A DNA stretch of 39,950 nt from Flavobacteriales bacterium. Its GTDB lineage: Bacteria; Bacteroidota; Bacteroidia; Flavobacteriales_D; Sanyastnellaceae. Position 1 is the first letter of the stretch, and every line of letters begins with the position of its first letter. Position numbers and translations under genes: made by a program. The notes under the pieces were generated by a model. The model was not told where the DNA came from and made no database searches. It was given only the letters and a program-made list of their open reading frames with translations. Of this stretch, positions 960 to 37,452 are shown in pieces. The DNA lies in assembly GCA_044341475.1 (NCBI GenBank), contig JBIIRP010000001.1, positions 1 to 39,950 on the forward strand, read 5' to 3'.

Positions 960-1019
960 TGTACTTTGCACACCTACACCGGATCTGTCCTACCTTTTCG
1001 GCCCACAACCTCTCGTACC

Positions 1020-3855: not shown

Positions 3856-3863
3856 TACATTCG
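3856..3863 (+). promoter_or_regulatory. TACATTCG box, 23 nt before susC ATG 3887
   Basis: A one-mismatch relative of TACCTTCG, 8 nt after the 3827-3847 hairpin. Confidence 0.3.
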
Positions 3864-9745: not shown

Positions 9746-9780
9746 AGACGGATGGCTTCGGCCATCCGTTTCTCATTCTA
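9746..9780 (+). terminator. Intrinsic terminator after the tandem-module PUL gene
   Basis: A perfect 9-bp stem ACGGATGGC / GCCATCCGT (9748-9756 / 9761-9769) carries a TTCG tetraloop. It can extend by G-U and A-U pairs to 9746/9771 and is followed by TTTCTCATTC. It starts 9 nt after the TAA at 9735-9737. Confidence 0.7.
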
Positions 9781-9786
9781 CCTTCG
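9779..9786 (+). promoter_or_regulatory. TACCTTCG box, 4 nt before ATG 9791 (GH13 lipoprotein)
   Basis: This is an exact copy of the recurrent 8-mer, placed directly after the terminator U-tract. It has the TAnnTT(T/C)G / TAnnnT shape of a -7/-10 element. Confidence 0.45.
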
Positions 9787-9790
9787 TCCC

Positions 9791-12124
9791 ATGCGCATTT
9801 CGCTTGTTTTCCTCGCGGGTCTCGCGGCCGTCGGATGTGGCCCAGCGTTCCGTCCCGCCGACTACCCCCTTGCAACGGGGTATCCCCTGCTCCCCGTGGT
9901 GCTGAATCCCGACACCACGGTGCTGGTGATCGCGGACTTCCTGCCCGACGGAACCGTGCCCGATTCGGTGGTGTGGGACGATGACACGCGGCTCGCGGTA
10001 GACTCCGGGCCGGATGGGCCTACGGTAACCATCCTCGGCGCACCGAAGCTCGGCATCGGTATGCTCCGGATGCATTGCGGAACCCGGGCGGTGGACCTGC
10101 CGGTGCTGCGTTCGGACATCCAAACCCTCACCCTCACCCGCTCCTTCCCGGGTGCACAAAGCGTCACACTGACCGGAGCTGTGAACGGCTGGAATGCGGA
10201 GGCCACGCCCTTCGTGCAGACGGCCAGCGGGTGGGAACTCGAGCTGAAACTGCCGGCCGGGGTGCACCCGTACCGGCTGGTGGTGGACGGGGCGTGGCGC
10301 CTCGATCCAGAAGCCCGCGACAGCATGCCGAACGGGATGGGCGCCTTCAACTCGGTGCTGGAGGTCGGCGCCGGAGGACCGGTTCTCGAAGCGACCGACG
10401 TTGTAGAGACGGACAGCGGCACCGTCGTTGTCTGTTCGGGGTCGGCCGGGGCGTCGCTCTTTGCGTGGTGGGAGAATTCACGTGTGCCCGCGGGGCAGGT
10501 GGGCGAAGACGGCAAGGGCTACGTGCGGTTGCCGGACTTTGCGGACCAAACCGGCCGGGCCCACCTCCGCGTTTGGGCTGCGAACGCCGAGGGGACGAGC
10601 CCCGTCGTGCTGCTTCCGCTGCAGGATGGCCACATCGTGCGCGATCCGGCCGAGCTCACGCGCACAGACCGCCATGCCACGGTGATGTATTTCCTGATGG
10701 TCGACCGGTTCATCAACGGCTCGACGGCAAACGACGGCCCCACTCCGGACGCCTCTATCTCTCCGAAAGCCAACCGCTACGGCGGCGACTTCGCTGGAAT
10801 TCAACAAGCACTCGAGACCGGATATTTCGACTCGCTCGGAATCAACACGTTGTGGATTTCACCTATCACCCGAAATCCCGACGACGCCTGGGGCCTGTGG
10901 AAGCATCCGGACACCGATGTGACCAGCCGGTTCAGCGGGTACCACGGGTATTGGCCCATCCGCCTGCGGGAAATCGACCCCCGCTTCGGCACAAAGGAGG
11001 AATTCGACGGCCTCGTGGGCGCGTTGCACGCCAAACAGATGAACGTGCTGGTGGACTACGTGGCGCACCACGTCCACGAGCAGCATCCCATGGTAAAGGA
11101 ACACCCGGACTGGTACACGGACCTGTACCTGCCGGACGGCTCGCTGAACACGGAGCGTTGGGACGACCACCGATTGACCACGTGGTTCGATGTGTTCCTG
11201 CCCACGCTCGATGTGGCGAAGCCTGAGGTGTGTGAGGCCATGACGGACAGTGCGTTGTGGTGGGTGTTGAATTCGGACATCGACGGCTTCCGTCACGACG
11301 CCACGAAGCACATTCCGGAGGGATTTTGGCGGATGCTCACCCGCAAGATCCGGACGCAGGCCCCCGGCCGTCCGCTGTTCCAAATCGGAGAAACCTACGG
11401 CAGCACAGCCCTCATCCGCAGCTACGTCCACAGCGGCATGCTCGACGCGCAGTTCGACTTCAACCACTACGACGCAGCCGTGGCGGCCCTGGGACTGCCT
11501 GGCGGTCGGATGGAGGATTTGGTCCGGACGGCGCAGGAAAGCCTGCGCGCGTACGGCGCAGACCACGCCATGGGCAATATCAGCGGCAACCAGGACCGAC
11601 CGCGCTTCACCTCGCTGGCCGACGGAAGCATCGCGCCAGGCGAAGACACGAAGTACGCCGGCTGGACGCGTTCCATCCAGCACGCAAACCAGCGCGGCTT
11701 CGACCGGATGCGCCTGCTCATGGCCTACCTGATGGCGTCGCCGGGCATCCCGTGCATCTACTACGGCGACGAAATTGCCGACGTGGGCGCGAACGATCCC
11801 GACAACCGGCGGCCCTTCCGGAGCACGGAACTGTTCGACGAGGAGCTGCGGACGCGGGATTGGACGGCGGCGTGGGTCAAGCTGCGCCGCAGCCGCATGT
11901 CGATGATGTACGGGGCGACGGCCTATGCGGTGCTCGCGCCAGGCCTGCTCCGGATCGACCGGACCTACCTCGGCGAGCGCACCATCGTGCTCATCAACTC
12001 CGGGGAGGCGCCGGTTCGTGTGACCTGGCCAGAAGGGGCCCCGCGCATCCTCGCAGGGAACGGCACGGCCATCGACGGGGCGATCGACCTGCCGGTCGGC
12101 GGAGCGGTGGCGGTTGCCGGCTGA
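9791..12124 (+). CDS. GH13 alpha-amylase-family lipoprotein with CBM48-like N-terminal module
   Basis: ATG 9791 gives lipoprotein signal MRISLVFLAGLAAVGC; the alternative ATG at 9752 lies inside a terminator hairpin. CBM48/AMPK-beta-like segment: VTLTGAVNGWNAEATPF..WELELKLPAGVHPYRLVVDGAWRLDP. GH13 regions: I VLVDYVAHHV, II DGFRHDATKHI, III FQIGETYG, IV GNISGNQDRPRF. Confidence 0.88.
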   Translation: MRISLVFLAGLAAVGCGPAFRPADYPLATGYPLLPVVLNPDTTVLVIADFLPDGTVPDSVVWDDDTRLAVDSGPDGPTVTILGAPKLGIGMLRMHCGTRAVDLPVLRSDIQTLTLTRSFPGAQSVTLTGAVNGWNAEATPFVQTASGWELELKLPAGVHPYRLVVDGAWRLDPEARDSMPNGMGAFNSVLEVGAGGPVLEATDVVETDSGTVVVCSGSAGASLFAWWENSRVPAGQVGEDGKGYVRLPDFADQTGRAHLRVWAANAEGTSPVVLLPLQDGHIVRDPAELTRTDRHATVMYFLMVDRFINGSTANDGPTPDASISPKANRYGGDFAGIQQALETGYFDSLGINTLWISPITRNPDDAWGLWKHPDTDVTSRFSGYHGYWPIRLREIDPRFGTKEEFDGLVGALHAKQMNVLVDYVAHHVHEQHPMVKEHPDWYTDLYLPDGSLNTERWDDHRLTTWFDVFLPTLDVAKPEVCEAMTDSALWWVLNSDIDGFRHDATKHIPEGFWRMLTRKIRTQAPGRPLFQIGETYGSTALIRSYVHSGMLDAQFDFNHYDAAVAALGLPGGRMEDLVRTAQESLRAYGADHAMGNISGNQDRPRFTSLADGSIAPGEDTKYAGWTRSIQHANQRGFDRMRLLMAYLMASPGIPCIYYGDEIADVGANDPDNRRPFRSTELFDEELRTRDWTAAWVKLRRSRMSMMYGATAYAVLAPGLLRIDRTYLGERTIVLINSGEAPVRVTWPEGAPRILAGNGTAIDGAIDLPVGGAVAVAG

Positions 12125-12652
12125 TCAGGGGGCCTTCGCTGCTTCGTTGAGGGTCAGGACGCGGACGATGGTCCACGCGCCGTCGCCGAGGTTGATGGAT
12201 TCGGTGCAGCGCAAGGCGCCAGGGGTGCGCTCGAAGGTGCGGCGGAGGAGGGCCGGTCGGCCTTGCCATTCGGAGCCGCGGGCGAGCGTTCCTTTCGAGG
12301 CTGCGGAAGAGCTGTGGAACCAGGTTTCTGTGCGGGGTTTAGAGTCTTCGATGACGGTGACTTCGACGCGGTTGTCCGTGCCGGTTTTCCACATTTCGAG
12401 GTGCTCGCGCACAGTCCCGTCCGAGCGTTGTTCGAGCCACTGGAGCACGAAGCCGTCTTCTTTGCCGTTGCGTTTGCCCGACAGGCTCACCGGGTTGCCA
12501 GCAGGATCTTCTGGGCGCGTGGCATTTCCGGTGTAGGATCCCTCAAGCATGTACATCCAATCCGGCACAGCAGTTTGGGCACGGGAAGCGCTAGGCAGTA
12601 GGGCCGCACATGCGAGGAGCAGCACCGTGGGGAAAGGAAAGCGGACGTTCAT
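12125..12652 (-). CDS. Hypothetical secreted protein (175 aa)
   Basis: ATG at 12652 gives signal peptide MNVRFPFPTVLLLACAALLPSASRAQ. The longer ORF-track start at 12823 would overlap the divergent dehydrogenase gene. I recognise no family. Confidence 0.55.
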   Translation of the reverse strand: MNVRFPFPTVLLLACAALLPSASRAQTAVPDWMYMLEGSYTGNATRPEDPAGNPVSLSGKRNGKEDGFVLQWLEQRSDGTVREHLEMWKTGTDNRVEVTVIEDSKPRTETWFHSSSAASKGTLARGSEWQGRPALLRRTFERTPGALRCTESINLGDGAWTIVRVLTLNEAAKAP

Positions 12653-12672
12653 GCCGCAAAGGAAAGTCGTGG

Positions 12673-12680
12673 TACCTTCG
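12673..12680 (+). promoter_or_regulatory. TACCTTCG box, 24 nt before ATG 12705 (PQQ dehydrogenase)
   Basis: An exact copy in the 52-nt divergent intergenic region. A related TTCCTTTG lies on the minus strand at 12664-12657, 4 nt before ATG 12652. Confidence 0.4.
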
Positions 12681-12704
12681 GGTCCGCACCTGTATTTCGA
12701 AATC

Positions 12705-14108
12705 ATGCGCACACGCCTTCTGCATGCGGCAGTTTGGGCATCGGCACTCGTGCCGATGGCAGCCCACGCCCAACCCACCTGGAACCTCGGCACCACCGTC
12801 CTCACGGAAACGAACCTCGTCACCGGCGTTCAACTGCCATGGGAAATCCTGTGGGGCCCGGACGACCACCTGTGGGTCACCACGCGGCCGGGCGATGTAC
12901 TGCGCGTCGACCCCGCAACGGGCATCTACACCACGGTGCTCGAGCTGACCGTGATGAACAACGGCTCGGGCGAACCCGGATTGCTCGGCATGGCGATGCA
13001 TCCGGAATGGGAATCGACGCCGAAGGTCTTCCTCGTGTACTGCACGGGATCAGGTGCATCCGGAAGCGAGCGGCTGAGTGTGTTCGATTGGGACGGAGTT
13101 TCGCTCGTGAACGAGCAGGTTCTTTTGACCATTTCTGCGGGAGGCATTCACAACGGATCGCGGCTGCTCGTCCTGCCTGACAATACGCTGCTCATGACCA
13201 CGGGCGACGTGGGCAATACCGGCAATGCCCAAAATTTGAATAGCTCGCAAGGCAAAATCCTGCGGCTCAACCTCGACGGCAGCATCCCCGCGGACAACCC
13301 GGATCCGACGAGCGCGGTCTACACCTACGGCAACCGCAACGCCCAAGGCCTCGCGCTGGGACCGGATGGCATCGTTTACAGCTCCGAACACGGCCAAAAC
13401 AGCGACGACGAGCTCAACATCGTCCTCCCCGGCCGCAACTACGGCTGGCCCACCGTCCAAGGCCTGTGCAACACCGCTTCCGAACAAACGTTTTGCGAAG
13501 CAAACAATGTCATGGAGCCCTTGAAAGTGTGGACTCCGTGTGTGGCGGTCAACGGCCTCGAATACTACAACCACCCCGCCATTCCGGAATGGCAGCACAG
13601 CCTGCTGCTCTCGGTACTCGGCGGCTTAAACGGGCAGTACGAGCGCTTGAGCGTGCTGCACCTGAGCGCCGACGGCCAGTCAATCACGTCCGAGGACCAG
13701 TGGTTCTCCTCGTTCAACCAACGCGTCCGGGACATCGCAGTCAACCCCTACGACGGGTCCGTCTATGTCGCGCTCAACGGCGTATCGTACCCTGGCTCGG
13801 GACCGAACATCATCAAGCAGTTCCGGAATGCCTCGTTCGGCGTGGACGTAGCCGAACACGCGGAGACGCCCGCTCCTTCCGCCTACCCTGTGCCGGCGAG
13901 CGACCTCCTGACGCTCGAAATTCCGCAGGAATGGCAGGGCAGCGAGGTGCGCATGTTCAGTTACACCGGCAGCCAGGTCGCGGCGTTTCGCGCGGATGCA
14001 TCGCATGAGGTTGTCGAGGTTCAGGACTGGTCGGAGGGCCTGTACTTCGCAGCCCTCGAGGCCCCGGATGGACGGAAGTGGACGGTGACGTTCTCGGTCG
14101 TGCGGTGA
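12705..14108 (+). CDS. PQQ-dependent soluble sugar (glucose/sorbosone) dehydrogenase family protein with T9SS type A C-terminal domain
   Basis: ATG 12705 gives signal peptide MRTRLLHAAVWASALVPMAAHAQ. sGDH/YliI-type blocks are present: LPWEILWGPDDHLWVTTRPG, GLLGMAMHPEW, HNGSRLLVLPDNTLLMTTGD, GKILRLNLDGSIPADNP, YTYGNRNAQGLALGPDG..SEHGQNSDDELNIVLPGRNYGWP. The last ~80 aa (YPVPASDLLTLEIP..EGLYFAALE..VTFSVVR) form a T9SS CTD. Confidence 0.85.
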   Translation: MRTRLLHAAVWASALVPMAAHAQPTWNLGTTVLTETNLVTGVQLPWEILWGPDDHLWVTTRPGDVLRVDPATGIYTTVLELTVMNNGSGEPGLLGMAMHPEWESTPKVFLVYCTGSGASGSERLSVFDWDGVSLVNEQVLLTISAGGIHNGSRLLVLPDNTLLMTTGDVGNTGNAQNLNSSQGKILRLNLDGSIPADNPDPTSAVYTYGNRNAQGLALGPDGIVYSSEHGQNSDDELNIVLPGRNYGWPTVQGLCNTASEQTFCEANNVMEPLKVWTPCVAVNGLEYYNHPAIPEWQHSLLLSVLGGLNGQYERLSVLHLSADGQSITSEDQWFSSFNQRVRDIAVNPYDGSVYVALNGVSYPGSGPNIIKQFRNASFGVDVAEHAETPAPSAYPVPASDLLTLEIPQEWQGSEVRMFSYTGSQVAAFRADASHEVVEVQDWSEGLYFAALEAPDGRKWTVTFSVVR

Positions 14109-18026: not shown

Positions 18027-18067
18027 GGCGTGTGTTTGGGCCCGAAAATCGGGCCAAATTCGCCACC

Positions 18068-18571
18068 ATGCGCATCGGCATCCTTTCCGACACCCACAGC
18101 TACCTCGACGACCGCATCCTCCACCACCTCGAGGGCTGCGCAGAAATCTGGCACGCCGGCGACATCGGCAGCTTCGAGGTGCTCGACGGGCTTGCCGCGG
18201 TGGCTCCTGTCCGGGCCGTCTATGGAAACATCGACGACCACCGGATGCGGAGTACTTGCCCGGAACGGCTCGTTTGGGACTGCGCCGGATTGCGGTGTGC
18301 GATGGTCCACATCGGCGGACATCCGGGCCGCTACGCCGCGGGCATAGGCGCCTGGCTCGAGGCCGAACGCCCGGACATCTTCCTGTGCGGCCACAGCCAC
18401 ATCCTGCGGGTGGAGCGCGATGCCCGATGGGGCGGACTGTTCATCAATCCGGGGGCGGCAGGCACGCACGGGTTCCACCGGATGCGCACGCTGTTGCGTA
18501 TGGAGGTCGTGGAGGGAGAAATCCGCGGAATGGAGGCGGTGGAGTTGGGTTTGCGCGGGAAAATCAGCTAA
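18068..18571 (+). CDS. Metallophosphoesterase, YfcE/MJ0936 family
   Basis: MRIGILSDTHS..IWHAGDIG..VYGNIDD..MVHIGGHP..FLCGHSHI..NPGAAG carries the phosphoesterase metal-ligand motifs. The upstream part of ORF 17582-18571 is antisense to the OmpA gene and is rejected. Confidence 0.85.
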   Translation: MRIGILSDTHSYLDDRILHHLEGCAEIWHAGDIGSFEVLDGLAAVAPVRAVYGNIDDHRMRSTCPERLVWDCAGLRCAMVHIGGHPGRYAAGIGAWLEAERPDIFLCGHSHILRVERDARWGGLFINPGAAGTHGFHRMRTLLRMEVVEGEIRGMEAVELGLRGKIS

Positions 18572-18594
18572 GTTTGTCACGACGTTGAAGGGCG

Positions 18595-18615
18595 GGATGT
18601 CCTGAGGGGACATCC
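18595..18615 (+). other. Perfect 8-bp hairpin in the metallophosphoesterase-rho intergenic region
   Basis: GGATGTCC-TGAGG-GGACATCC has no U-tract (AAACATTCC follows). It lies 24 nt after the upstream TAA and 36 nt before the rho ATG. Confidence 0.35.
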
Positions 18616-18650
18616 AAACATTCCACACCACTGACATTCTCGTATTTTTG

Positions 18651-20495
18651 ATGTACGACATCATAGACCTCAACAGCAAGAAGGTCAACGACTTGCGCGA
18701 AATTGCCAAAGGCATGGGGGTAGACGGAGGGGACAAGCTGAAAAAGCAGGACCTCATCTACACCATCCTCGACACCCAAGCGGTGTCGGCCAAATCCACT
18801 CCCCCTGCCGCCAAGGCACCTGCGGAACCCGCAGGTCGCTCCCGGCGCGGTCGCGGTGGCAACCCAGGACCGCCGGCGAACGGCGGTGCCGAACCTGCCG
18901 CTCCGGTCCTCGAAGTGGCCCCTCTCACCGACGCAGCTCCTGCTGGAACGGTTGCAGCAGAGCCAGGCGAACCCCGCCGGCCCGGAGACCACATCCGCAA
19001 CCGCCGCGAGCGCCAGCGACTGCAGCGCGATCAACGTCCTGAAGGCCCATCTGAAACCGGGGCTCCCGCGCAAGCAGAGGCGCCTGTGCCTCCTGCCCCG
19101 CGGGACCGCAACGACCGGCCGGACCGGAACGATCGGCCGGACCGCAACGATCGGCCGGACCGGAACGACAGAAACGACCGCAACGACGTACGCGGAGACC
19201 GCAACGACATGCGCCGCGACCGGAACGATCGGAACGACCGGAATGACCGCCGCGACCGGAACGACCGCCGCGACGGACGCGAGAACCGCGACGGACGCGA
19301 CGGACGGAATCCGGCGATGCAAAACGGCGGTGGCCGACCGCACGAGCGGCCCGCTGATCCGGAAGAACACGGATACAACTTCGACGGCATCATCGCCTCG
19401 GAGGGGGTGTTAGAAATCCAGCCGGAAGGCTTCGGCTTCCTCCGTTCAGCGGATTTCAACTACCTCAATTCTCCGGACGATGTGTATGTGACTGCTCGCC
19501 AAATCAAGCAATTTGGCCTGCAGACAGGCGACACCGTAATTGCAAAAATTCGCCCTCCGCGGATCAACGACAAATACTACCTGCTCGCCGATGTGGAGAG
19601 CATCAACGGTCGCGATCCCTCCTGGGTGCGCGACCGCATTCCGTTCCAGTTCCTTACGCCCCTGTTCCCACAGGAGCGGTTCAAACTCAGCACGCGGGGA
19701 AGCACCATTTCCACACGCCTCATGGACCTCTTCGCTCCCGTGGGCAAGGGCCAGCGTGGCATGATTGTGTCGCAGCCGAAGACGGGAAAAACCACCCTGC
19801 TGAAAGACGTTGCGAACGCCATTTCGCTGAACCACGCCGAGACCTACCTCATCGTCCTGCTCATCGATGAGCGGCCAGAAGAAGTCACAGATATGAAGCG
19901 CAGCGTCAACGCCGAGGTCATCGCCTCGACCTTCGACGAGCCTGCCGACCGCCACGTGCGCATCGCGAACCTGGTGCTCGAAAAAGCGAAGCGCATGGTC
20001 GAATGCGGCCACGACGTGTGCATCCTTCTCGACTCTATCACCCGCCTGGCACGCGCCTACAACACCGTGAGCCCGAGTTCCGGGAAGATCCTGAGCGGCG
20101 GCGTCGAGGCAAATGCCCTGCAGAAGCCCAAACGGTTCTTCGGTGCGGCCCGGAACATCGAAAACGGTGGCTCCCTCTCCATCATCGCGACGGCCTTGAC
20201 CGACACCGGTTCTAAGATGGACGAGGTGATTTTTGAGGAATTCAAGGGAACCGGCAACATGGAATTGCAGCTCGACCGCCGCATTTCGAACCGCCGGATC
20301 TACCCGGCCATTGACATCTTGTCTTCGGGCACCCGGAAAGAAGATTTGCTCCTGGACAAGGATACCTTGCAGCGCATTTGGATCCTTCGCAAACACCTTG
20401 CGGACATGAACCCCGTGGAGGCGATGGAGTTTATCCGGGATCGGATCGAAAAGACCCGGACGAACGAGGAGTTCCTCGCTTCGATGAATGGCTGA
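18651..20495 (+). CDS. rho: Transcription termination factor Rho with ~195-aa low-complexity insertion after the N-terminal helix bundle
   Basis: The ATG at 18651 is the start (18648 is TTG). The N-terminus [30 protein letters not shown] aligns with the Rho helix bundle. The RNA-binding subdomain is [33 protein letters not shown]. The ATPase core carries [19 protein letters not shown] (Walker A), [10 protein letters not shown] and [14 protein letters not shown]. Confidence 0.95.
19104..19310 (+). repeat. In-frame 18-bp tandem repeat array (about 11 units) encoding DRNDR(P/N/R) hexapeptides inside rho
   Basis: gaccgcaacgaccggccg / gaccggaacgatcggccg / gaccgcaacgatcggccg are three near-identical units at 19104-19157. 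Progressively diverged units follow (gaccggaacgac.., gaccgcaacgac.., gacggacgcgac..). Confidence 0.8.
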
Positions 20496-21040: not shown

Positions 21041-21068
21041 GGTACTGTGGAAGGGGCGGCCTGCGTTG

Positions 21069-21076
21069 TAGATTTG
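21069..21076 (+). promoter_or_regulatory. TAGATTTG box (perfect TAnnTTTG), 16 nt before ATG 21093
   Basis: It lies in the 52-nt gap upstream of the outer-membrane barrel / CapD / unknown / yigZ unit. Confidence 0.3.
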
Positions 21077-21092
21077 GGACGATTCCCGGCAC

Positions 21093-21815: not shown

Positions 21816-23746
21816 TGCCACAGGCGGGACTGCGGCTTGTGCCCCGATCGCGCTGGCTGCGGCGCACACTGCGGCGCAAGCGGTTCGAATGGCAACTGCA
21901 AGCGGCGAGGCGGTTCATGCCCCGGTGGGCCATTTTCGTTTTCGATGCAGGACTTGCCCTCGGCGCCCTCGGAATGGCGGCCTTGCTGCGGTTCGAGTTC
22001 GCCATTCCCCCGAGCGAGTGGCGGGTTCTGGTGGCCTTTTTGCCGCTGTTTCTCGCTGTCCGGCTGGCAGCAATGGGCCTGTTTCGGACCTCCGCTGGGG
22101 TCATCCGACACGCCGGTGCCTACGACGCGCGGCGGTTGCTCGCGGCGACCGGTGTCGGAACGGCAATTTTCGCGGCGGGCAATCTGGCGCGCGCTGGCTG
22201 GGGCGACGGCGCCTACTTCGTTCCGTTTTCCATCGCCGTCATCGAGGGGTTGTTGACGGCGAGCGGGTTGCTGGCGAGCCGCTTTGTGGTCAAGTGGCTG
22301 TACCAGGCGTCGCGGCGGTCGCCAGATGAGGTGGTCCGCGTGGTCATTTTCGGAGCGGGAGATGCGGGATTGATTGCCAAACGCGCCCTCGAACGTGAAC
22401 CTGGAGCCGCTGGTCTTCAAGTGGCTGCCTTCCTTGACGACGACCGCCGGAAGGCCGGCAAGGTGCTCGACGGCGTGCAGATTGTCGATGCGACGGAGGC
22501 GGGCGATCTCTTCGCGGAAGGCGGGGTGGACCGGCTGATTTTGGCGGTGCAGCGGCTTGATCCGGAGCGCCGGCGGCAACTCGTGGATCTGGCCCTGGCC
22601 CACGGCGTGCGTCCGCTGGATGTTCCCCCGGTAGACCGGTGGGTGGGCGGCGAGCTGACCGCTCGCCAAATCCGCGAACTCCGCATCGAAGACCTGCTCG
22701 GTCGCCCTCCCATCCAGCTCGACGCCGCCCACGCCGGTTCGGTGCTGGAAGGCCGCCGCATCCTCGTCACCGGCGCTGCCGGCTCCATCGGCTCCGAGCT
22801 CGTGCGCCAAATCTGTGCCCACCGGCCCGCAGCGGTATGCGGACTGGACCAGGCCGAAACGCCGCTCCACGACCTGATGCTCGAGTTCAGCGGCCAGGCG
22901 GGCCCGGGACTCGACCTGCGCATCGCGGACGTGCGGCGCCCCGAAGACCTCACCGCCCTCTGTGCCGCCTTCCGGCCCGATGTCGTGTTCCATGCCGCCG
23001 CGTACAAGCACGTGCCGCTCATGGAAGCGCAACCCGCGGAGGCCCTGCGCACGAACGCCTGGGGGACACTCAACGTCCTGCGGGCAGCGCAAGCTTCCGG
23101 GTGTGCCACCTTCGTGCTCGTCTCCACCGACAAGGCCGTCAATCCGACGAACGTCATGGGCGCGACGAAACGTTTGGCCGAACGATGCGTCCACCTGCAG
23201 GCGGCCCGCGGAACGACCCGGTGCGTGACGACGCGGTTTGGCAATGTGCTCGGAAGCAACGGCAGTGTTATTCCGCGCTTTCGCGCCCAAATCGAAGCCG
23301 GTGGACCCGTCACGGTGACCCACGCCGACGTCACCCGCTTCTTCATGACCATCCCAGAGGCGGTGGCCCTCGTGCTCGAGGCGGCAGCACTGGGCCGAGG
23401 CGACGACCTGTTCGTCTTCGACATGGGCGAATCCGTGCGCATCGTCGACCTCGCCCGGAAGATGATTCAGCTCGCGGGACGCGAAGTGGACCGCGACATC
23501 GAGCTCGAAATCACCGGCTTACGCCCCGGAGAAAAACTCCACGAAGAACTGCTTGCCGCCTCAGAAGGCCTCCTGCCGACCCACCATCCGAAAATCTTAC
23601 GCGCTGCCCACACCGCATCGACCGAGGACGAAACCCACCTGCTTGACGCCCTCGATGCCTGGGCTGCGGGGGGGACTGGGGACGCAGATGCCCGAGATGT
23701 GCTTCATCGGTGGGTACCGGAATACACCCCTACCTTCGCACCATGA
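21815..23746 (+). CDS. Membrane-anchored polysaccharide-biosynthesis protein, CapD/WbpM/PglF-type NDP-sugar 4,6-dehydratase
   Basis: N-terminal transmembrane segments are followed by VVIFGAGDAG, and then by a short-chain dehydrogenase domain (RILVTGAAGSIGSEL, HAAAYKHVPLME, VLVSTDKAVNPTNVMGATKRLAE, RFGNVLGSNGSVIP). ATG 21815 shares one nt with the upstream TGA; GTG 21812 is an alternative start. Confidence 0.88.
   Translation: MPQAGLRLVPRSRWLRRTLRRKRFEWQLQAARRFMPRWAIFVFDAGLALGALGMAALLRFEFAIPPSEWRVLVAFLPLFLAVRLAAMGLFRTSAGVIRHAGAYDARRLLAATGVGTAIFAAGNLARAGWGDGAYFVPFSIAVIEGLLTASGLLASRFVVKWLYQASRRSPDEVVRVVIFGAGDAGLIAKRALEREPGAAGLQVAAFLDDDRRKAGKVLDGVQIVDATEAGDLFAEGGVDRLILAVQRLDPERRRQLVDLALAHGVRPLDVPPVDRWVGGELTARQIRELRIEDLLGRPPIQLDAAHAGSVLEGRRILVTGAAGSIGSELVRQICAHRPAAVCGLDQAETPLHDLMLEFSGQAGPGLDLRIADVRRPEDLTALCAAFRPDVVFHAAAYKHVPLMEAQPAEALRTNAWGTLNVLRAAQASGCATFVLVSTDKAVNPTNVMGATKRLAERCVHLQAARGTTRCVTTRFGNVLGSNGSVIPRFRAQIEAGGPVTVTHADVTRFFMTIPEAVALVLEAAALGRGDDLFVFDMGESVRIVDLARKMIQLAGREVDRDIELEITGLRPGEKLHEELLAASEGLLPTHHPKILRAAHTASTEDETHLLDALDAWAAGGTGDADARDVLHRWVPEYTPTFAP
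23731..23738 (+). promoter_or_regulatory. TACCTTCG box, 4 nt before ATG 23743 (hypothetical protein), inside the 3' end of the CapD-like gene
   Basis: Exact copy with the same N4 geometry as at 9779. Confidence 0.4.
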
Positions 23747-24138: not shown

Positions 24139-24144
24139 CCCGCT

Positions 24145-24765: not shown

Positions 24766-24771
24766 AGCGAA

Positions 24772-25545
24772 TCAGCGCGGCTTGCGAATCACGTACAAGG
24801 TGCGATCCCAACCGAGCGCATACCGCTGGCAGCGATCCTCCCCCACGAGTTTGGTCAAATCCACTACGTCGACCTCAAATCCTGTATCCCTCCACCGCTG
24901 CGGATAGTCCGCATAGCCGTAGAGACGGACGTGGTCCCGCTGCCAGTACAGCCGCTCCCGCTCCGCCGGATCGGTGACCGCCGGGTCTTCTGCGGTATCC
25001 GGATTTTGTCCGTTGATAGGCACGAGCACAATGCCCCAGCCTCCTGGCCGCAGCACACGGAAAAACTCGCGCATCACTTGGCGGTCATCGGCCACGTGTT
25101 CAAGCAGGTGGTTTGCCATAACCACGTCGAACGACGCATCCGGAAACGGAATCGCATGGCAGTCGAAGTGGTGCTCCGCCCACGGGGAATTCAAATCGCC
25201 GGTTATGTAGTCCAAATTCCTCAACCGCTTGAAATAGCGCAAGTAGCAGTACTCCGGAGCGAGATGCAAGAACCGCAGGGGCTCGGTAAAGAAGCTCGTT
25301 TGTTCGCGCAGATAAATCCACACCGCGCGGTGGCGCTCCAGGGAAAGGCTGTGCGGGGCTATAGCGTTCAGGCGGGGTGAGATGCGCCCGTACGGCAGCA
25401 ACTTGCGGTAGGTCCTGCCGGTAATCGGGTCTTCGAAGCGGTTTCCTCGCCAAACAAACGCGACCAGCACCACGGTCCACCGCGTGATCGGCTGCAGCCA
25501 ATGGCGCGGAACAAACCGTGTAAAAAAGGCAATCAGCGATTTCAC
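24772..25545 (-). CDS. Class I SAM-dependent methyltransferase
   Basis: Methyltransferase-fold motifs LHLAPE, FDVVMANHLLEHV and VLRPGGWGIVLVP are present. The ORF-track TTG start at 25605 would place a strong intrinsic terminator inside the CDS. GTG 25545 lies 5 nt after a TACCTTCG box and just past that terminator. Confidence 0.8.
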   Translation of the reverse strand: MKSLIAFFTRFVPRHWLQPITRWTVVLVAFVWRGNRFEDPITGRTYRKLLPYGRISPRLNAIAPHSLSLERHRAVWIYLREQTSFFTEPLRFLHLAPEYCYLRYFKRLRNLDYITGDLNSPWAEHHFDCHAIPFPDASFDVVMANHLLEHVADDRQVMREFFRVLRPGGWGIVLVPINGQNPDTAEDPAVTDPAERERLYWQRDHVRLYGYADYPQRWRDTGFEVDVVDLTKLVGEDRCQRYALGWDRTLYVIRKPR

Positions 25546-25550
25546 GCCGC

Positions 25551-25558
25551 CGAAGGTA
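25551..25558 (-). promoter_or_regulatory. TACCTTCG box, 5 nt before GTG 25545 (methyltransferase)
   Basis: An exact copy on the minus strand, 2 nt after the end of the terminator tail (..TTTTTGTTGCGCAG-TACCTTCG-GCGGC-GTG). Confidence 0.45.
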
Positions 25559-25560
25559 CT

Positions 25561-25602
25561 GCGCAACAAAAAGCCCGCCCCGACGCATCGGAGCGGGCTT
25601 TT
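25561..25602 (-). terminator. Intrinsic terminator after the CRTAC1-like T9SS gene
   Basis: The minus strand reads AAAAGCCCGC..(inner 4-bp stem with one mismatch, CGCA-type tetraloop)..GCGGGCTTTTTGTTGCGC. The outer stem is a perfect 10 bp (25569-25578 with 25593-25602), followed by a U-tract. It lies 20 nt past the TAA at 25623-25625. Confidence 0.8.
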
Positions 25603-25622
25603 CAACCGGCCTCCCGGAAAAC

Positions 25623-28424: not shown

Positions 28425-28524
28425 GCGGGAAAGTGGTTAAAGTTCAACTTCTTGCGAAAAGGTTGGCGTGAAAGGTACGCAGTTTCCTGCAGGACTCCAC
28501 CCCCGTCTGCGCGGGCGAGCGTTG

Positions 28525-28532
28525 TACCTTCG
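28525..28532 (+). promoter_or_regulatory. TACCTTCG box, 8 nt before ATG 28541 (mtaB)
   Basis: An exact copy in the 116-nt divergent intergenic region. A related TACCTTTC lies on the minus strand at 28477-28470, 45 nt before ATG 28424. Confidence 0.4.
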
Positions 28533-28540
28533 CCGCCGTC

Positions 28541-29824: not shown

Positions 29825-29827
29825 GCG

Positions 29828-31069: not shown

Positions 31070-31099
31070 ACCCCGGCGCCCGCTGGCCGTCCTCCGGTC

Positions 31100-31663: not shown

Positions 31664-31699
31664 ACCTGAACCCCACCTCCGCTGTCATCGCTTCAACCC

Positions 31700-31993
31700 A
31701 TGGATCCGTTTTCGACCCCTCCCGGCTACTTCGATGCCCTCCCTGAACGCATCGTCCGTCGCACGCGCACTCGGACGCGTCGGCTTCGTATGGTGTGGGC
31801 TTCTGCAGCAGCACTTGCGGCCGGGTGGATTGCGTGGGCGATTTTGCCCGTGCCGGCAGGCGGGCAAAAGCCCTGTGCGACCTTCGCCTGCCTGCTCGAA
31901 ACCACTGCGACGGAGGATTTGCTCCACGACGCCGTGCTCGAGGAACTCGCGGATGACCCCGAAGCGTTTGATGTGCTCACCGAGGATCTCTAA
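31700..31993 (+). CDS. Putative anti-sigma factor (small single-pass membrane protein)
   Basis: It lies directly downstream of the ECF sigma gene. A basic stretch (RRTRTRTRRLR) is followed by one transmembrane segment (MVWASAAALAAGWIAWAILPV). Its stop shares one nt with the next ATG (TAATG). The function is inferred from context only. Confidence 0.5.
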   Translation: MDPFSTPPGYFDALPERIVRRTRTRTRRLRMVWASAAALAAGWIAWAILPVPAGGQKPCATFACLLETTATEDLLHDAVLEELADDPEAFDVLTEDL

Positions 31994-32451
31994 TGCCGAA
32001 CCCCATGGCCCTCGCCCGAACCCTTTGCGTGCTCGCCGGACTGATTTGCGCTGGTGCAGCGGCAGCACAACCTGCCACGAATCCGCGCATTGAATCCCTG
32101 CGCATCGCCTTCGTGACGGAGCGCCTCGAGCTCACGCCTCAGGAAAGTGAGGCGTTTTGGCCCGCGATTCGGGTGCACCACCGCGAGCTCGAATCGTTGC
32201 GGTCGCGCATCGATGCCCTGTACGATGAAGTCAAGGCCGGCGTGTCGGAGAAGCGGGCAACTGAAATCTATGCCCAACTGAACAGTCTCCACCGCGCAGA
32301 GCTCGAGCGTAGGGAACTGCTGATCCGCGATGCGGCAACGACCATCGGGTACGCCCGTGCGCTGCGGCTTCCCGCTGCCGAACGTGAATTCCGGGTCCGT
32401 GTGGCCGAGGAGATTCGGGAGCGGCGCGGCGGTCCCCCACCCCGTCACTGA
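31993..32451 (+). CDS. Periplasmic Spy/CpxP-like (LTXXQ-type) protein, third gene of the ECF module
   Basis: Signal peptide MPNPMALARTLCVLAGLICAGAAAAQ. The helical repeats carry LELTPQESEAFWPAIRVHHRELESLR, which is typical of the periplasmic 'sensor of ECF sigma' proteins of Bacteroidota. Confidence 0.6.
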   Translation: MPNPMALARTLCVLAGLICAGAAAAQPATNPRIESLRIAFVTERLELTPQESEAFWPAIRVHHRELESLRSRIDALYDEVKAGVSEKRATEIYAQLNSLHRAELERRELLIRDAATTIGYARALRLPAAEREFRVRVAEEIRERRGGPPPRH

Positions 32452-32804
32452 GGAGGCGCGAAGGCCAGGCACACACCGTTGATGCAGAAGCGCTCGCCGG
32501 TGTCCGTCGGGCCATCCGGGAACACGTGTCCGAGGTGGCCGCCGCAGCGCGCGCACCGCACTTCGGTGCGAATCATGCCGTGGCTAAGATCGCGGTGCAA
32601 GGTGACTGCACCCGGCAGGGCCGCATCGAAGCTCGGCCAACCGCACCCGGAGGCGAACTTCGTGTCGGCTTCGAAAAGCACCGAATCGCAGCCTACACAC
32701 CGGTACGTTCCATCCTCGAAATGGTCGCAGAGCGGCGAGGAGAAGGGCCGCTCCGTCCCGCCCTCCCGGAGCACCCGGTGGGCCTCAGGACTGAGCGGGT
32801 TCAT
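32445..32804 (-). CDS. msrB: Peptide-methionine (R)-S-oxide reductase
   Basis: GTERPFSSPL..GTYRCVGCDSVLF..KFASGCGWPSF..EVRCARCGGHLGHVFPDGP..RFCINGVCL is the full SelR/MsrB signature, including both CxxC zinc pairs. Confidence 0.93.
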   Translation of the reverse strand: MNPLSPEAHRVLREGGTERPFSSPLCDHFEDGTYRCVGCDSVLFEADTKFASGCGWPSFDAALPGAVTLHRDLSHGMIRTEVRCARCGGHLGHVFPDGPTDTGERFCINGVCLAFAPPQ

Positions 32805-34147
32805 GACGGGTCCGCCTTCGGTTTGCGGTTGCGGCGCTTTTTTCTGCGTTTGGCGGCATCCGAGGTGGGTGCTGGGGCCGTCTGGGCTGCAGGCCGGTTG
32901 CGGTCCCCTCCCCTACCGCGATCCCCGCCTCGGCCGCGGTCGCCGCCTCGGCTACGTTCGCCGCCTCGGCCAGCCGCTTTGTGGGATCCCGTGTATTCGG
33001 GCGATGGTCCGACGCCTTCCGGGAGGGGGCGCTTTTCGACTGTACGCTCGATGAGCTTTTCGATGCGCATGAAGCGGCGTTGGTCGTCGGGCGAGACGAG
33101 CGTGATGCCCTCGCCTTCGCGATCTGCCCGCGCCGTCCGTCCGATGCGGTGCACGTAATCCTCTTCGTTCGGCGGAACGTCGTAGTTCACGACGAGCTCG
33201 ATGTTGTCGACGTCGATGCCCCGGCTGACGACGTCGGTGGCGACAAGGATGGGGATTTTGCGCTGCCGGAAGGCCAGCATGACCTCTTCGCGCTCGTTTT
33301 GTTCGAGATCGGACGAGATGCGGTCGCACGCAATGCCGGCCTTGCGGAGGACGCGGACGATGGTCGACACAGTGCGCTTCCGCGAGGTGAACACGATGCC
33401 GCTGGAGACGTTGCGTTCGCGCAGGATGTGGACGAGCACGTCATCTTTTTGGTGGTCGAAGACCAAATACGCCCCCTGCTTGATCTTCTCCGCGGGCTTC
33501 GACAGCGCAAGTTTCACCGTGACGGGATCGCGCTGCAATTCGCGGGCGAGTTGCTCGATGCGGTCGGGCATGGTGGCGCTAAACAGCAGGGTTTGGCGGT
33601 CTTTCTTGCAGTGCTCGGCGATGCGCATGATATCGCCCACGAAGCCCATGTCGAGCATGCGGTCCGCTTCGTCGAGGATGAGGAACCGGAGTTCGCTCAG
33701 GTCGACATAGCCCAGGTTCAGGTGCGACAGGAAGCGGCCGGGCGTGGCGATGATGATGTCTGCTCCCTGGACGAGGGCGTTTTTCTCGCGCGTGAAGTCG
33801 AGACCTGATCCTCCGCCATAAATGGCCAAGCTCGTGACGTTCGCATAGTAACCGAATCCTTCCACCGCCTGGTCGATCTGCTGGGCGAGCTCGCGGGTCG
33901 GAACGACAATCAGGGCCTTGACCTTGCCGTTTTCCGGGGTGTCGAGGATGCGGTCGATGACCGGCAAAAGAAAGGCAGCGGTCTTGCCGGTGCCTGTTTG
34001 GGCGATGCCGAGCAGGTCGCGGCCGGCCAGCACCGCGGGCACGCCCTGGGCCTGGATGGGCGTTGCGTTGTTAAATCCCATCGCCGCAAGGGCATCCAAC
34101 ACATCTGGATGCAAGGGCATCTCCTCAAACCGAACCTGATTTTCCAC
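32801..34147 (-). CDS. DEAD-box ATP-dependent RNA helicase with C-terminal RGG/RGD-rich tail
   Basis: Helicase motifs are present: Q motif FNNATPIQAQ, motif I AQTGTGKTAAF, PTRELA, DEAD in LILDEADRMLDMGF, SAT, and motif VI HRIGRTAR. The ORF-track start at 34201 is TTG. GTG 34147 (VENQVRFEEMPLHPDVL) lies 4 nt after a TACCTTCG box, and ATG 34120 is the alternative start. Confidence 0.9.
   Translation of the reverse strand: MENQVRFEEMPLHPDVLDALAAMGFNNATPIQAQGVPAVLAGRDLLGIAQTGTGKTAAFLLPVIDRILDTPENGKVKALIVVPTRELAQQIDQAVEGFGYYANVTSLAIYGGGSGLDFTREKNALVQGADIIIATPGRFLSHLNLGYVDLSELRFLILDEADRMLDMGFVGDIMRIAEHCKKDRQTLLFSATMPDRIEQLARELQRDPVTVKLALSKPAEKIKQGAYLVFDHQKDDVLVHILRERNVSSGIVFTSRKRTVSTIVRVLRKAGIACDRISSDLEQNEREEVMLAFRQRKIPILVATDVVSRGIDVDNIELVVNYDVPPNEEDYVHRIGRTARADREGEGITLVSPDDQRRFMRIEKLIERTVEKRPLPEGVGPSPEYTGSHKAAGRGGERSRGGDRGRGGDRGRGGDRNRPAAQTAPAPTSDAAKRRKKRRNRKPKADPS
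32894..32971 (-). repeat. In-frame short periodic repeat encoding (R-G-G-D/E-R-G/S) units in the helicase tail
   Basis: The plus strand shows recurring cgccgcctcgg units (32923-32970). The translated minus strand reads GRGGERSRGGDRGRGGDRGRGGDRNR. Confidence 0.6.
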
Positions 34148-34151
34148 ATCA

Positions 34152-34159
34152 CGAAGGTA
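34152..34159 (-). promoter_or_regulatory. TACCTTCG box, 4 nt before GTG 34147 and 31 nt before ATG 34120 (DEAD-box helicase)
   Basis: An exact copy on the minus strand, upstream of the conserved helicase N-terminus. Confidence 0.4.
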
Positions 34160-36979: not shown

Positions 36980-37031
36980 CCCGTTGCATCCCCGGAGCGG
37001 ATTTGTATATTCGCCACGAAGTCCAAGCCAG

Positions 37032-37444: not shown

Positions 37445-37452
37445 TATCTTTG
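37445..37452 (+). promoter_or_regulatory. TATCTTTG box (perfect TAnnTTTG), 8 nt before ATG 37461
   Basis: It matches the Bacteroidota -7 consensus, lies immediately after the 37418-37443 hairpin, and is 5 nt before GTG 37458. Confidence 0.4.

What the first reader, a model, noticed from the sequence alone, without database searches (positions are those of the whole stretch)
9779..34159. Exact 8-mer TACCTTCG occurs six times, always sense-oriented 4-24 nt upstream of a start codon: candidate lineage-specific -10/-7 box implying leaderless mRNAs
Scanning both strands by eye, I find TACCTTCG exactly six times. On the plus strand the copies are at 9779 (N4 then ATG 9791, GH13 lipoprotein), 12673 (N24, ATG 12705, PQQ dehydrogenase), 23731 (N4, ATG 23743, hypothetical) and 28525 (N8, ATG 28541, mtaB). 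On the minus strand they are at 25558-25551 (N5, GTG 25545, methyltransferase) and 34159-34152 (N4, GTG 34147, DEAD-box helicase). I saw no copy in a gene body away from a start, and none in antisense orientation. A uniform-composition model expects about 2 x 39950 / 4^8 = 1.2 copies anywhere in the window. One-mismatch relatives occupy the same position class: TACATTCG 3856 (susC), TATATTCG 37006 (PUR-alpha-like), TATCTTTG 37445 (hydrolase), TAGATTTG 21069 (outer-membrane barrel), TACCTTTT 991 (secreted GH13), TACCTTTC 28477 minus (CRTAC1-like) and TTCCTTTG 12664 minus (N4, ATG 12652). The shape TAnnTT(T/C)G is that of the Bacteroidota sigma-A -7 element (TAnnTTTG), and TACCTT also fits a TAnnnT -10 hexamer. 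With only 4-5 nt between box and start codon, transcription would begin at or within a nucleotide or two of the start codon. That would make these mRNAs leaderless, which is not the textbook picture for this phylum. I see no fixed-distance TTTG -33 partner.
Basis: partly seen in the sequence, partly recalled or inferred. Interest (0 to 1): 0.7.

Follow-up and report, generated by a model that had tools for sequence, protein, structure and literature searches.

The report
Promoter boxes abutting start codons
The repeated 8-mer TACCTTCG is this uncultured Flavobacteriales bacterium's version of the standard Bacteroidota promoter "-7 box", and where it sits 4-5 bases before a start codon the gene is most likely transcribed without any leader; this is a known but minority arrangement in the phylum, and it explains several wrongly called gene starts.

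Summary
TACCTTCG occurs exactly six times (0.49 expected), at the stated coordinates. All copies are in sense orientation, 4, 24, 4, 5, 8 and 4 nt upstream of homology-supported start codons. Only the 8-mer is shared among the six sites.

The 8-mer fits the Bacteroidota sigma-A -7 box (TAnnTTTG at -12 to -5) except for C instead of T at -6. Published TSS maps put the start 4-5 nt after the box, so N4/N5 places +1 on the A/G of the start codon.

- Orthologs in relatives with 37-64% GC keep box-N4-start for mtaB, the DEAD-box helicase, the methyltransferase, GSDH and TPR-OmpA. Their flanks diverge.
- susC, DUF3276 and the lactamase-B gene keep boxes at N12-23.
- Spacing histograms show a sharp N4-5 peak, and -1 is C in 26 of 35 sites.
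- Two copies directly follow terminator hairpins.
- F. psychrophilum ruvB (TATATTTG-N4-ATG) has a mapped 5'UTR of 0.

What is overstated: the box and leaderless mRNAs are already documented in Bacteroidota (about 4-13% of mRNAs), C-6 boxes occur outside this lineage, and no TSS data exist for this organism. Whether leaderless genes are unusually frequent here (about 6 of 20 units) remains open.

The parts
9779..9786 (+). -7 box TACCTTCG. N4 to ATG 9791 of the GH13 lipoprotein. Predicted +1 is A9791 (leaderless).
   Evidence: The lipoprotein signal peptide starts at this ATG. The public gene call agrees. The box is not conserved in the 85%-identical sister species (L099/L100).
9746..9771 (+). 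Terminator-like hairpin (11-bp stem, TTCG loop, U-rich tail). It ends 7 nt before the box and closes the upstream PUL genes.
   Evidence: dG -18.5 kcal/mol, z -4.75, and 0 of 200 shuffles fold as well. A hairpin is retained in L099, L100 and L104.
12673..12680 (+). -7 box TACCTTCG. N24 to ATG 12705 of the GSDH/PQQ dehydrogenase. Predicted leader is about 20 nt, so this is an ordinary leadered promoter.
   Evidence: The box and N24 are conserved in L102 and L098. Marine relatives L103, L119 and L120 have TACCTTCG at N4 before the same gene.
23731..23738 (+). -7 box TACCTTCG inside the last 16 nt of the epimerase gene. N4 to ATG 23743 of a 131-aa hypothetical protein. This is an internal, leaderless-type promoter.
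25551..25558 (-). -7 box TACCTTCG. N5 to GTG 25545 of the methyltransferase. Predicted +1 is G25545.
   Evidence: Orthologs in L009 and L013 have a hairpin followed by TATGTTTG or TATTTTTG at N4 before ATG, and their N-termini align.
25568..25603 (-). Strong terminator hairpin (16-bp stem plus U-run) after the FG-GAP gene, ending 9 nt before the box. The public gene calls (starts at 25569 and 25605) run through it.
28525..28532 (+). -7 box TACCTTCG. N8 to ATG 28541 of mtaB. Predicted leader is 3-4 nt (near-leaderless).
   Evidence: mtaB has a box at N4-N10 in 54 of 72 Bacteroidota loci, and at N4 in 12 of them.
34152..34159 (-). -7 box TACCTTCG. N4 to GTG 34147 of the DEAD-box helicase. Predicted +1 is G34147.
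   Evidence: The GTG-GAA start with a box at N4 is conserved in L007, L008, L009, L010, L012, L013 and L032. The public calls at 34081 and 34114 cut into the conserved N-terminal FEEMPLHPDVLDA segment.
3856..3863 (+). Related box TACATTCG. N23 to susC ATG 3887 (leadered).
   Evidence: The box is conserved at N18-23 in susC orthologs.
37006..37013 (+). Related box TATATTCG. N18 to the DUF3276 gene ATG 37032 (leadered).
   Evidence: N18-19 is conserved in L007, L008 and L012.
37445..37452 (+). Related box TATCTTTG. N5 to GTG 37458, or N8 to ATG 37461, of the lactamase-B hydrolase.
   Evidence: Orthologs L008 and L019 have the same box at N16 and N12.
21069..21076 (+). Related box TAGATTTG. N16 to the OMP beta-barrel gene ATG 21093.
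   Evidence: Orthologs in L009 and L013 have TACCTTCG and TAAGTTTG at N4.
991..998 (+). Weaker box TACCTTTT (lacks G-5). N21 to the secreted GH13 gene ATG 1020.

Best explanation
TACCTTCG is the preferred local form of the housekeeping sigma-A (sigma-ABfr type) -7 promoter element of Bacteroidota, whose consensus is TAnnTTTG at -12 to -5. Here it carries C instead of T at -6.

RNA polymerase starts 4-5 nt after the G of the box. At 9779, 23731, 34159 (N4) and 25558 (N5) the first transcribed base is therefore the A or G of the start codon. These four genes (GH13 lipoprotein, 131-aa protein, DEAD-box helicase, methyltransferase) are made as leaderless mRNAs and translated from a 5'-terminal AUG or GUG. 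mtaB (N8) gets a 3-4 nt leader. The GSDH gene (N24) gets a normal leader of about 20 nt.

Shown here: the sequence match, orientation, spacing statistics, cross-species conservation of the box-to-start spacing, and the terminators directly upstream. Inferred: the actual TSS, recognition by sigma-A, and translation of the leaderless transcripts.
For: - **Count and placement:** six copies against 0.49 expected, all in sense orientation upstream of starts.
- **Match to the defined box:** the experimentally defined -7 box has T-12, A-11, T-8, T-7, T-6 and G-5, no G at -10/-9, and 4-5 nt to the TSS (PMC6847099; box at -12 to -5, PMC9723704).
- **Conserved N4 arrangement in orthologs:** mtaB has TAACTTCG, TAAATTCG, TAATTTCG or TATTTTTG at N4 in L007 and L009-L013. 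The DEAD-box helicase has GTG at N4 in 7 relatives. The methyltransferase in L009 and L013 has a hairpin, then a box, then N4 and ATG. GSDH in L103, L119 and L120 has TACCTTCG at N4, and TPR-OmpA has TAAATTCG at N4 before GTG.
- **Gene-specific longer spacings:** susC, DUF3276 and the lactamase-B gene keep their boxes at N12-23. This is promoter-like, not RBS-like, behaviour.
- **Spacing histograms:** a sharp N4-5 peak with N0-3 and N7-10 depleted, and flat reversed and reverse-complement controls.
- **TSS-like dinucleotide:** in the logo of 35 N4 sites, -1 is C in 26, and +1 is A in 29 and G in 6. This is the usual pyrimidine(-1)/purine(+1) TSS preference.
- **No room for a leader:** strong hairpins end 7-9 nt before two of the boxes.
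- **Experimental precedent:** F. psychrophilum ruvB has TATATTTG-TACG-ATG and a mapped TSS-to-start distance of 0.
- **Out-of-sample check:** the 10 kb past the window end (L092) holds one good box, TACTTTCG at N4 before the gcvT ATG.
Against: - There are no TSS, 5'-end or ribosome data for this organism.
- T-6 is described as nearly invariant in F. johnsoniae, but here it is C.
- No -33 element is detectable. It is also weak in F. johnsoniae.
- The box before the GH13 lipoprotein gene is missing in the 85%-identical sister species (TCCCTTGC at N3), so that promoter is young or dispensable.
- Ortholog counts are phylogenetically non-independent.
- Two of the four leaderless candidates use GTG. 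GTG works poorly on leaderless mRNAs in E. coli, although it works in mycobacteria (my own knowledge, not tested here).
Confidence: 0.75

Rival explanations
1. The 8-mer is transcribed and acts in the mRNA as a translation-initiation element at a fixed distance from the start codon, like a substitute for Shine-Dalgarno. Transcription would start further upstream.
For: A tight 4-5 nt spacing to the start codon is also what a ribosome-binding signal would show. One copy (23731) lies inside an operon-like gene pair with ATGA overlap. Bacteroidota lack SD sequences and use other upstream cues.
Against: - The same motif sits at N12-N24 before other genes, with gene-specific conserved distances.
- It equals the experimentally defined promoter box, and the spacing equals the known box-to-TSS distance.
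- Ten internal operon genes in the window lack it.
- Two copies follow strong terminators by 7-9 nt, so an upstream TSS would have to read through them.
- The 8-mer resembles, rather than complements, the 16S 3' tail CACCUCCUU (my own knowledge, not tested).
- F. psychrophilum ruvB has this architecture and a mapped TSS on the ATG.
Confidence: 0.07
2. The exact 8-mer is the binding site or -10 element of a dedicated regulator or alternative sigma factor. It would define a small regulon (GH13, GSDH, a hypothetical protein, the methyltransferase, mtaB, the helicase) rather than the housekeeping promoter box.
For: Six of about twelve plausible boxes are letter-identical, which is more uniform than the degenerate TAHHTTYG consensus predicts, and canonical TACCTTTG is absent. 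In the window clade, C at -6 goes preferentially with the N4 class: 4 C-major families against 0 T-major, compared with 3 against 8 among leadered families.
Against: - The genes are functionally unrelated housekeeping and PUL genes.
- Orthologous promoters in relatives carry different nn bases, and either T or C at -6, at the same position.
- The motif keeps every strongly conserved sigma-A contact except T-6.
- The ECF-type promoters described in F. psychrophilum look different (SM6 has a CGT box).
Confidence: 0.1
3. The boxes are real promoters but the proteins start further downstream. The proximal ATG/GTG would not be the true start, so the mRNAs would have ordinary leaders.
For: Public gene callers chose other starts for three of the six genes.
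Against: - For the methyltransferase and GSDH the alternative calls are upstream of the proposed start, not downstream, and for the methyltransferase they run through a terminator hairpin.
- The alternative helicase calls are downstream, but they cut into the conserved N-terminal segment.
- Protein conservation starts at residue 1-8 for mtaB and the helicase.
- The GH13 lipoprotein and GSDH begin with typical signal peptides at the proposed ATG.
Confidence: 0.04
4. This is a chance or compositional artefact: an AT-richer 8-mer that simply accumulates in intergenic DNA of a 63% GC genome.
For: Intergenic DNA is less GC-rich than coding DNA, and the window is only 40 kb.
Against: Zero of 100 shuffles reach 6 copies. 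All six copies are in sense orientation and none is antisense (p about 8e-13 under uniform placement). The arrangement is conserved in orthologs across GC contents of 37-64%. Reversed and reverse-complement control motifs give flat histograms.
Confidence: 0.01

Closest known systems
Bacteroidota sigma-A (sigma-ABfr) -33/-7 promoter, TTTG / TAnnTTTG (B. fragilis, F. johnsoniae, F. psychrophilum, B. thetaiotaomicron)
   Same: T-12, A-11, T-8, T-7 and G-5 are present, with no G at -10/-9. The motif is upstream of genes in sense orientation. The box-to-start distances fit the published 4-5 nt box-to-TSS spacing. The -33 element is weak or absent, as in F. johnsoniae.
   Different: Position -6 is C in all six copies and in about 56% of conserved boxes in the window clade, against about 18% in other Bacteroidota loci. 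The nn bases are uniformly CC. No TSS or sigma-factor data exist for this organism.
Leaderless mRNAs mapped in Bacteroidota (e.g. F. psychrophilum ruvB, TATATTTG-N4-ATG, TSS distance 0)
   Same: The architecture is identical: box, 4 nt, start codon.
   Different: In the mapped species these are 3.7-5.5% of mRNAs, or 13% with a leader of 10 nt or less. In this window about 6 of about 20 transcription units have a box at N4-8. That is a small sample, and the figure is not established genome-wide. Two of the candidates use GTG.
Leaderless promoters of Actinobacteria and Deinococcus (GeneMarkS-2 'group C': Pribnow box at a fixed short distance from first genes of operons)
   Same: A promoter -10-type box is sharply localised a few nt upstream of start codons, and there is a bimodal split between leaderless and leadered genes.
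   Different: The box and sigma type differ (TAnnTTYG against TAnnnT). Ninety percent of Bacteroidetes/Chlorobi genomes were typed as group B (non-SD RBS), not group C.
SM5 motif TAnnTTGY of F. psychrophilum
   Same: It has the same TA...TTG frame at -12 to -5. TAnnTTGC boxes are conserved upstream of orthologs of the FG-GAP/ASPIC gene.
   Different: The six TACCTTCG copies keep the sigma-A spacing between TA and TT-G, so they are not SM5.

Membership tests
Bacteroidota sigma-A -7 promoter box (TAnnTTTG) | Near-invariant T-12, A-11, T-8, T-7, T-6 and G-5 | tested here: inconclusive
   Five of six positions are met in all six copies. T-6 is replaced by C. TTCG boxes also occupy conserved promoter positions in other Bacteroidota, for example lgt with TATCTTCG at N15-18. 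The substitution therefore appears tolerated.
Bacteroidota sigma-A -7 promoter box (TAnnTTTG) | No G at -10/-9 (TAHHTTTG) | tested here: met
   These positions are CC in all six copies. In the 35 N4 sites, G occurs once at -10 and three times at -9.
Bacteroidota sigma-A -7 promoter box (TAnnTTTG) | Sense orientation upstream of genes, with conservation at orthologous promoters | tested here: met
Bacteroidota sigma-A -7 promoter box (TAnnTTTG) | A -33 TTTG partner about 19-21 nt upstream | tested here: not met
   There is no positional TTG/TTTG enrichment in the 35 aligned N4 promoters. This element is also 'much less evident' in F. johnsoniae, so it is not a strict requirement.
Bacteroidota sigma-A -7 promoter box (TAnnTTTG) | Transcription starts 4-5 nt downstream of the box, and the box is recognised by sigma-A holoenzyme | not testable with these tools
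   This needs 5'-end mapping or in-vitro transcription. The rpoD gene is not in the window.
Leaderless mRNA | The TSS coincides with the first base of the start codon, or lies within a few nt of it | not testable with these tools
   This is inferred from the N4/N5 spacing together with the published box-to-TSS distance and the ruvB precedent.
Leaderless mRNA | A correct start codon immediately downstream of the promoter, supported by the protein N-terminus | tested here: met
   Ortholog N-termini and signal peptides support 9791, 25545, 28541 and 34147. 23743 rests only on the public gene call.
Leaderless mRNA | Fixed promoter-to-start spacing under selection (a sharp spacing peak, conserved across orthologs) | tested here: met
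Leaderless mRNA | TSS-like dinucleotide (pyrimidine at -1, purine at +1) at the start codon | tested here: met
   Position -1 is C in 26 of 35 sites, and +1 is A or G in all 35.

The most novel reading that the evidence does not exclude
In this Flavobacteriales clade, leaderless initiation is a major mode of gene expression rather than a marginal one. It would cover a quarter or more of transcription units, several-fold above every mapped Bacteroidota species. It would also be marked by a specialised C-6 form of the -7 box (TAnnTTCG) locked at exactly 4 nt from the start codon, perhaps reflecting a change in sigma-A or in TSS-selection precision.
Probability: 0.2. Interest if true: 0.6.

Novelty: new member of a known kind. 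Interest (0 to 1): 0.4.

Why it matters
**Annotation.** In this window, public gene calls mis-place the starts of at least four genes: the methyltransferase, the DEAD-box helicase, GSDH and a secreted 175-aa protein. The box-N4-start rule and the ortholog N-termini resolve them. Gene finders treat Bacteroidota as 'non-SD RBS' genomes and do not model promoter-adjacent starts.

**Biology.** The results show that a leaderless or near-leaderless architecture is conserved for specific housekeeping genes across a phylum whose translation-initiation mechanism is still incompletely understood. mtaB has a box at N4-10 in 54 of 72 Bacteroidota loci, and DEAD-box helicase orthologs keep the arrangement too. 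The results also give a concrete, testable set of promoters, including C-6 variants, for work on sigma-ABfr specificity and TSS selection.

It is not a new mechanism.

Tried and rejected
- **Dispersed repeat or mobile element:** rejected. Only the 8 bases are shared among the six sites.
- **Known RNA family:** Rfam finds nothing at gathering threshold anywhere in the window.
- **Sigma-70 consensus scan:** it gives no signal (2 and 4 promoter-like hits against 3.3 and 2.7 expected). Its terminator scan missed the two hairpins that direct folding shows clearly.
- **-33 partner:** I looked for one in 35 aligned N4 promoters and found none.
- **Pairing of the 8-mer with 16S rRNA:** considered from memory only. 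ACCUUC resembles the anti-SD strand rather than complementing it. The partial complement GAAGGU lies in helix 45, which is not an mRNA-binding site. This was not pursued.
- **Genome-wide count in the same organism:** not possible. The species has no representative in the genome collection (best MtaB match 71%). Contigs carrying window proteins add only about 10 kb of new sequence (L092). An 8-mer is too short for collection-wide pattern scans, which need at least 14 specified bases.
- **TAACTTCA (8363) as a box for the DUF5004 gene, TATTTTTG (18643) for rho, and TTCCTTTG (12657, -) for the 175-aa protein:** none is accepted as a canonical box. They have, respectively, overlap with the susD stop codon, N0 spacing with a conserved 'ttgATG', and no A-11.
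- **The F. psychrophilum ortholog of mtaB in the published TSS table:** I found only miaB, with TSS distances of 2 and 12.

Full report
**Observation**

Dinucleotide-preserving shuffles give a mean of 0.49 copies and never more than 2. All six copies are in sense orientation upstream of a start codon. The spacers are 4 nt (ATG 9791), 24 nt (ATG 12705), 4 nt (ATG 23743), 5 nt (GTG 25545, - strand), 8 nt (ATG 28541) and 4 nt (GTG 34147, - strand). Under uniform placement the probability of that pattern is about 8e-13, and TACCTT is the most enriched hexamer in the 40 nt before starts. Aligning the six sites shows that nothing outside the 8-mer is shared, so it is not a repeat element. Rfam finds no known RNA in the window.

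**Organism and gene map**

The window carries SusC/SusD genes, T9SS C-terminal domains, a DUF3276 gene and a parAB-dnaA neighbourhood. Identical proteins occur only on metagenome contigs. The nearest genomes are uncultured Flavobacteriales MAGs with about 70% MtaB identity. It is therefore a high-GC (63%) uncultured Flavobacteriales lineage.

Public gene calls disagree among themselves for the methyltransferase (starts at 25569 and 25605) and the helicase (34081 and 34114), and they place GSDH at 12651.
- The upstream methyltransferase calls run through a 16-bp terminator hairpin.
- Ortholog N-termini align to GTG 25545 and to the conserved GTG-GAA at 34147.
- GSDH and the divergent 175-aa protein begin with signal peptides at 12705 and 12652.

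**What the 8-mer is**

Experimental work defines the Bacteroidota sigma-A -7 element as T-12, A-11, T-8, T-7, T-6 and G-5, with no G at -10/-9. It lies 4-5 nt from the TSS (F. johnsoniae, PMC6847099) and spans -12 to -5 (F. psychrophilum, PMC9723704). TACCTTCG fits every position except -6, where it has C instead of T.

Other genes in the window carry sibling boxes at longer distances: TACATTCG at N23 (susC), TATATTCG at N18 (DUF3276), TAGATTTG at N16 (OMP), TATCTTTG at N8/N5 (lactamase-B) and TACCTTTT at N21 (GH13). Of 22 TAnnTTYG matches on both strands, 11 lie within 24 nt upstream, in sense orientation, of a gene start.

**Comparative test**

I fetched 80 mtaB-centred loci from species-representative genomes and 46 GH13-centred metagenome loci. 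The box-N4-start arrangement is conserved while the flanks diverge and GC ranges from 37% to 64%.
- **mtaB:** TAACTTCG, TAAATTCG, TAATTTCG, TATTTTTG or TAATTTTG at N4 in L007, L009-L013, L021 and L032, and at N5-7 in further Flavobacteriales. A box lies at N4-N10 in 54 of 72 Bacteroidota loci overall.
- **DEAD-box helicase:** a box, N4, then GTG in seven relatives.
- **Methyltransferase:** a terminator hairpin, then TATGTTTG or TATTTTTG, then N4 and ATG in L009 and L013.
- **GSDH:** TACCTTCG at N4 before ATG in L103, L119 and L120, against N24 in the window's own genus.
- **TPR-OmpA:** TAAATTCG at N4 before GTG in marine relatives.

By contrast, susC, DUF3276 and the lactamase-B gene keep their boxes at N12-23 in all relatives. 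Gene-specific, conserved distances of this kind are what a promoter element shows, not a ribosome-binding signal.

**Spacing statistics**

I counted box-spacer-ATG/GTG combinations that open an ORF of at least 100 codons.
- The Flavobacteriales relatives show a sharp peak at N4-5, depletion at N0-3 and N7-10, and a broad shoulder beyond N11. Reversed and reverse-complement control motifs are flat.
- In the window clade, TAnnTTCG gives 22 hits at N4 against 1 at N3, 3 at N5 and 1 at N6.
- Pedobacter- and Chitinophaga-type loci show mainly the N17-22 mode expected from published 5'UTR lengths.
- A logo of 35 N4 sites shows C at -1 in 26 and A or G at +1 in all, which is the usual pyrimidine/purine TSS dinucleotide. 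It shows no -33 motif.

**Local anatomy**

Two copies follow strong terminator-like hairpins by 7-9 nt. These are at 9746-9771 (dG -18.5 kcal/mol, z -4.75) and 25568-25603 on the - strand (16-bp stem). That leaves no room for a separate promoter plus leader.

Two boxes lie inside the 3' end of the preceding gene and would act as internal promoters: 23731 in the window, and TACTTTCG before gcvT in the 10-kb extension L092.

**Experimental precedent**

In the F. psychrophilum TSS table, ruvB has the sequence TATATTTG-TACG-ATG and a TSS-to-start distance of 0. The column definitions were checked. The architecture found here is therefore known to give a leaderless transcript in a cultured relative.

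**Conclusion on mechanism**

The best explanation (confidence about 0.75) is that the six sites are sigma-A promoters. Four of them (9779, 23731, 25558, 34159) start transcription on the start codon itself. mtaB has a 3-4 nt leader and GSDH a normal leader. The sequence evidence is direct. The TSS, the sigma-factor dependence and translation of the leaderless transcripts are inferred.

Four rivals were considered:
- A transcribed translation signal (0.07).
- A dedicated regulator or alternative sigma factor (0.10).
- Wrongly placed start codons (0.04).
- Chance (0.01).

**What is and is not new**

The -7 box is textbook for the phylum. Leaderless mRNAs are documented but rare:
- 3.7% of 5'UTRs are shorter than 10 nt in B. 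thetaiotaomicron.
- 5.5% of mRNAs are leaderless in F. psychrophilum.
- 13% have a leader of 10 nt or less in F. johnsoniae.
- One of 37 Bacteroidetes/Chlorobi genomes had predicted leaderless genes.
- 90% of Bacteroidetes/Chlorobi genomes were typed as 'non-SD RBS' by GeneMarkS-2.

'Lineage-specific' holds only quantitatively. C at -6 is found in about 56% of conserved boxes in the window clade against about 18% elsewhere. The exact 8-mer and other TTCG boxes occur at conserved promoters in relatives and in Pedobacter-type genomes.

In the window, about 6 of about 20 transcription units have a box at N4-8. That is higher than the published fractions, but it is a small and possibly unrepresentative sample. 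Rough estimates from relatives' loci give about 7-13%.

**Unexplained residue**

- Among families conserved in at least two loci of the window clade, N4-5 promoters are C-major at -6 in 4 families and T-major in 0. Leadered promoters are C-major in 3 and T-major in 8 (my own Fisher test on these counts gives p about 0.03). This is suggestive, but the sample is small and not phylogenetically independent.
- Six letter-identical boxes, with zero canonical TACCTTTG, is more uniformity than the consensus requires.
- The GH13 lipoprotein box is absent from the 85%-identical sister species, although the hairpin is kept.

**Verdict**

This is a real, functional signal, correctly read by the first stage. 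It is a new set of members of a known kind, with a modest lineage-biased variant (C-6). Interest is moderate. It is useful for annotating gene starts and as a testable promoter set, but it is not a new mechanism.

Noticed in passing
window 3827-3847: A perfect 7-bp inverted repeat, ATGGTGT-N7-ACACCAT, lies 8 nt upstream of the susC -7 box (3856). Relatives keep GTGT-N7/8-ACAC at the same place (L105, L110, L116, L125, L140). It is probably the operator of the regulator of this starch-type PUL.
   Followed up: partly
window 28425-28480 (- strand) and orthologous loci L010, L013, L019, L021, L032: Orthologs of the FG-GAP/ASPIC gene carry conserved TAnnTTGC boxes (TAACTTGC, TATCTTGC, TACATTGC) at N21-31. 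These match the SM5 motif TAnnTTGY described in F. psychrophilum. The window copy is degenerate (TACCTTTC at N45).
   Followed up: partly
window 24772-25605, 32801-34147, 12651-12705, 12125-12652, 34109-34256: Public automatic gene calls mis-place or disagree on the starts of the methyltransferase, the DEAD-box helicase, GSDH, a secreted 175-aa protein and the PKD/CHU_C protein. One PKD call overlaps the helicase N-terminus.
   Followed up: yes
window 18569-18653: The rho gene (ATG 18651) has TATTTTTG directly abutting its ATG (N0), with 'ttgATG' conserved in relatives, so this is not a promoter. The likely promoter is TAAGTTTG at 18569, overlapping the stop codon of the upstream gene. Its leader of about 70 nt contains a hairpin (about 18596-18623).
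   Followed up: partly
window 18027-18067: A 41-nt divergent intergenic region lies between TPR-OmpA (-) and a metallophosphoesterase (+). It holds the palindrome GGGCCCGAAAATCGGGCC and two near-boxes lacking T-12 (GATTTTCG at N16, CAAATTCG at N5). Both are conserved in L102.
   Followed up: partly
window 12657-12664 (- strand): TTCCTTTG lies at N4 before ATG 12652 of the secreted 175-aa protein. It is conserved in L098-L102, and as TTTCTTTG at longer distance in marine relatives, but it lacks the A-11 that -10-type elements normally need. It sits back to back with the GSDH box, 8 nt apart.
   Followed up: partly
L092 6958-6972 (about 7 kb past the window end): TACTTTCG lies at N4 before the gcvT ATG, inside the 3' end of the WbqC-like gene. 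This is a second internal leaderless-type promoter in the same organism.
   Followed up: partly
loci L034-L086 (mtaB and lgt upstream regions): mtaB keeps a -7 box only 4-10 nt before its ATG across Pedobacter, Chitinophaga, Mucilaginibacter and others (54 of 72 loci). In the Pedobacter-type loci (set B+C), lgt keeps a TATCTTCG (C-6) box at N15-18.
   Followed up: partly
L013 (CAZKGY010000011.1): The record is titled 'uncultured Comamonadaceae bacterium', but the contig is syntenic with the Flavobacteriales loci and 55-73% identical in protein. This is probably a bin or taxonomy mislabel.
   Followed up: no
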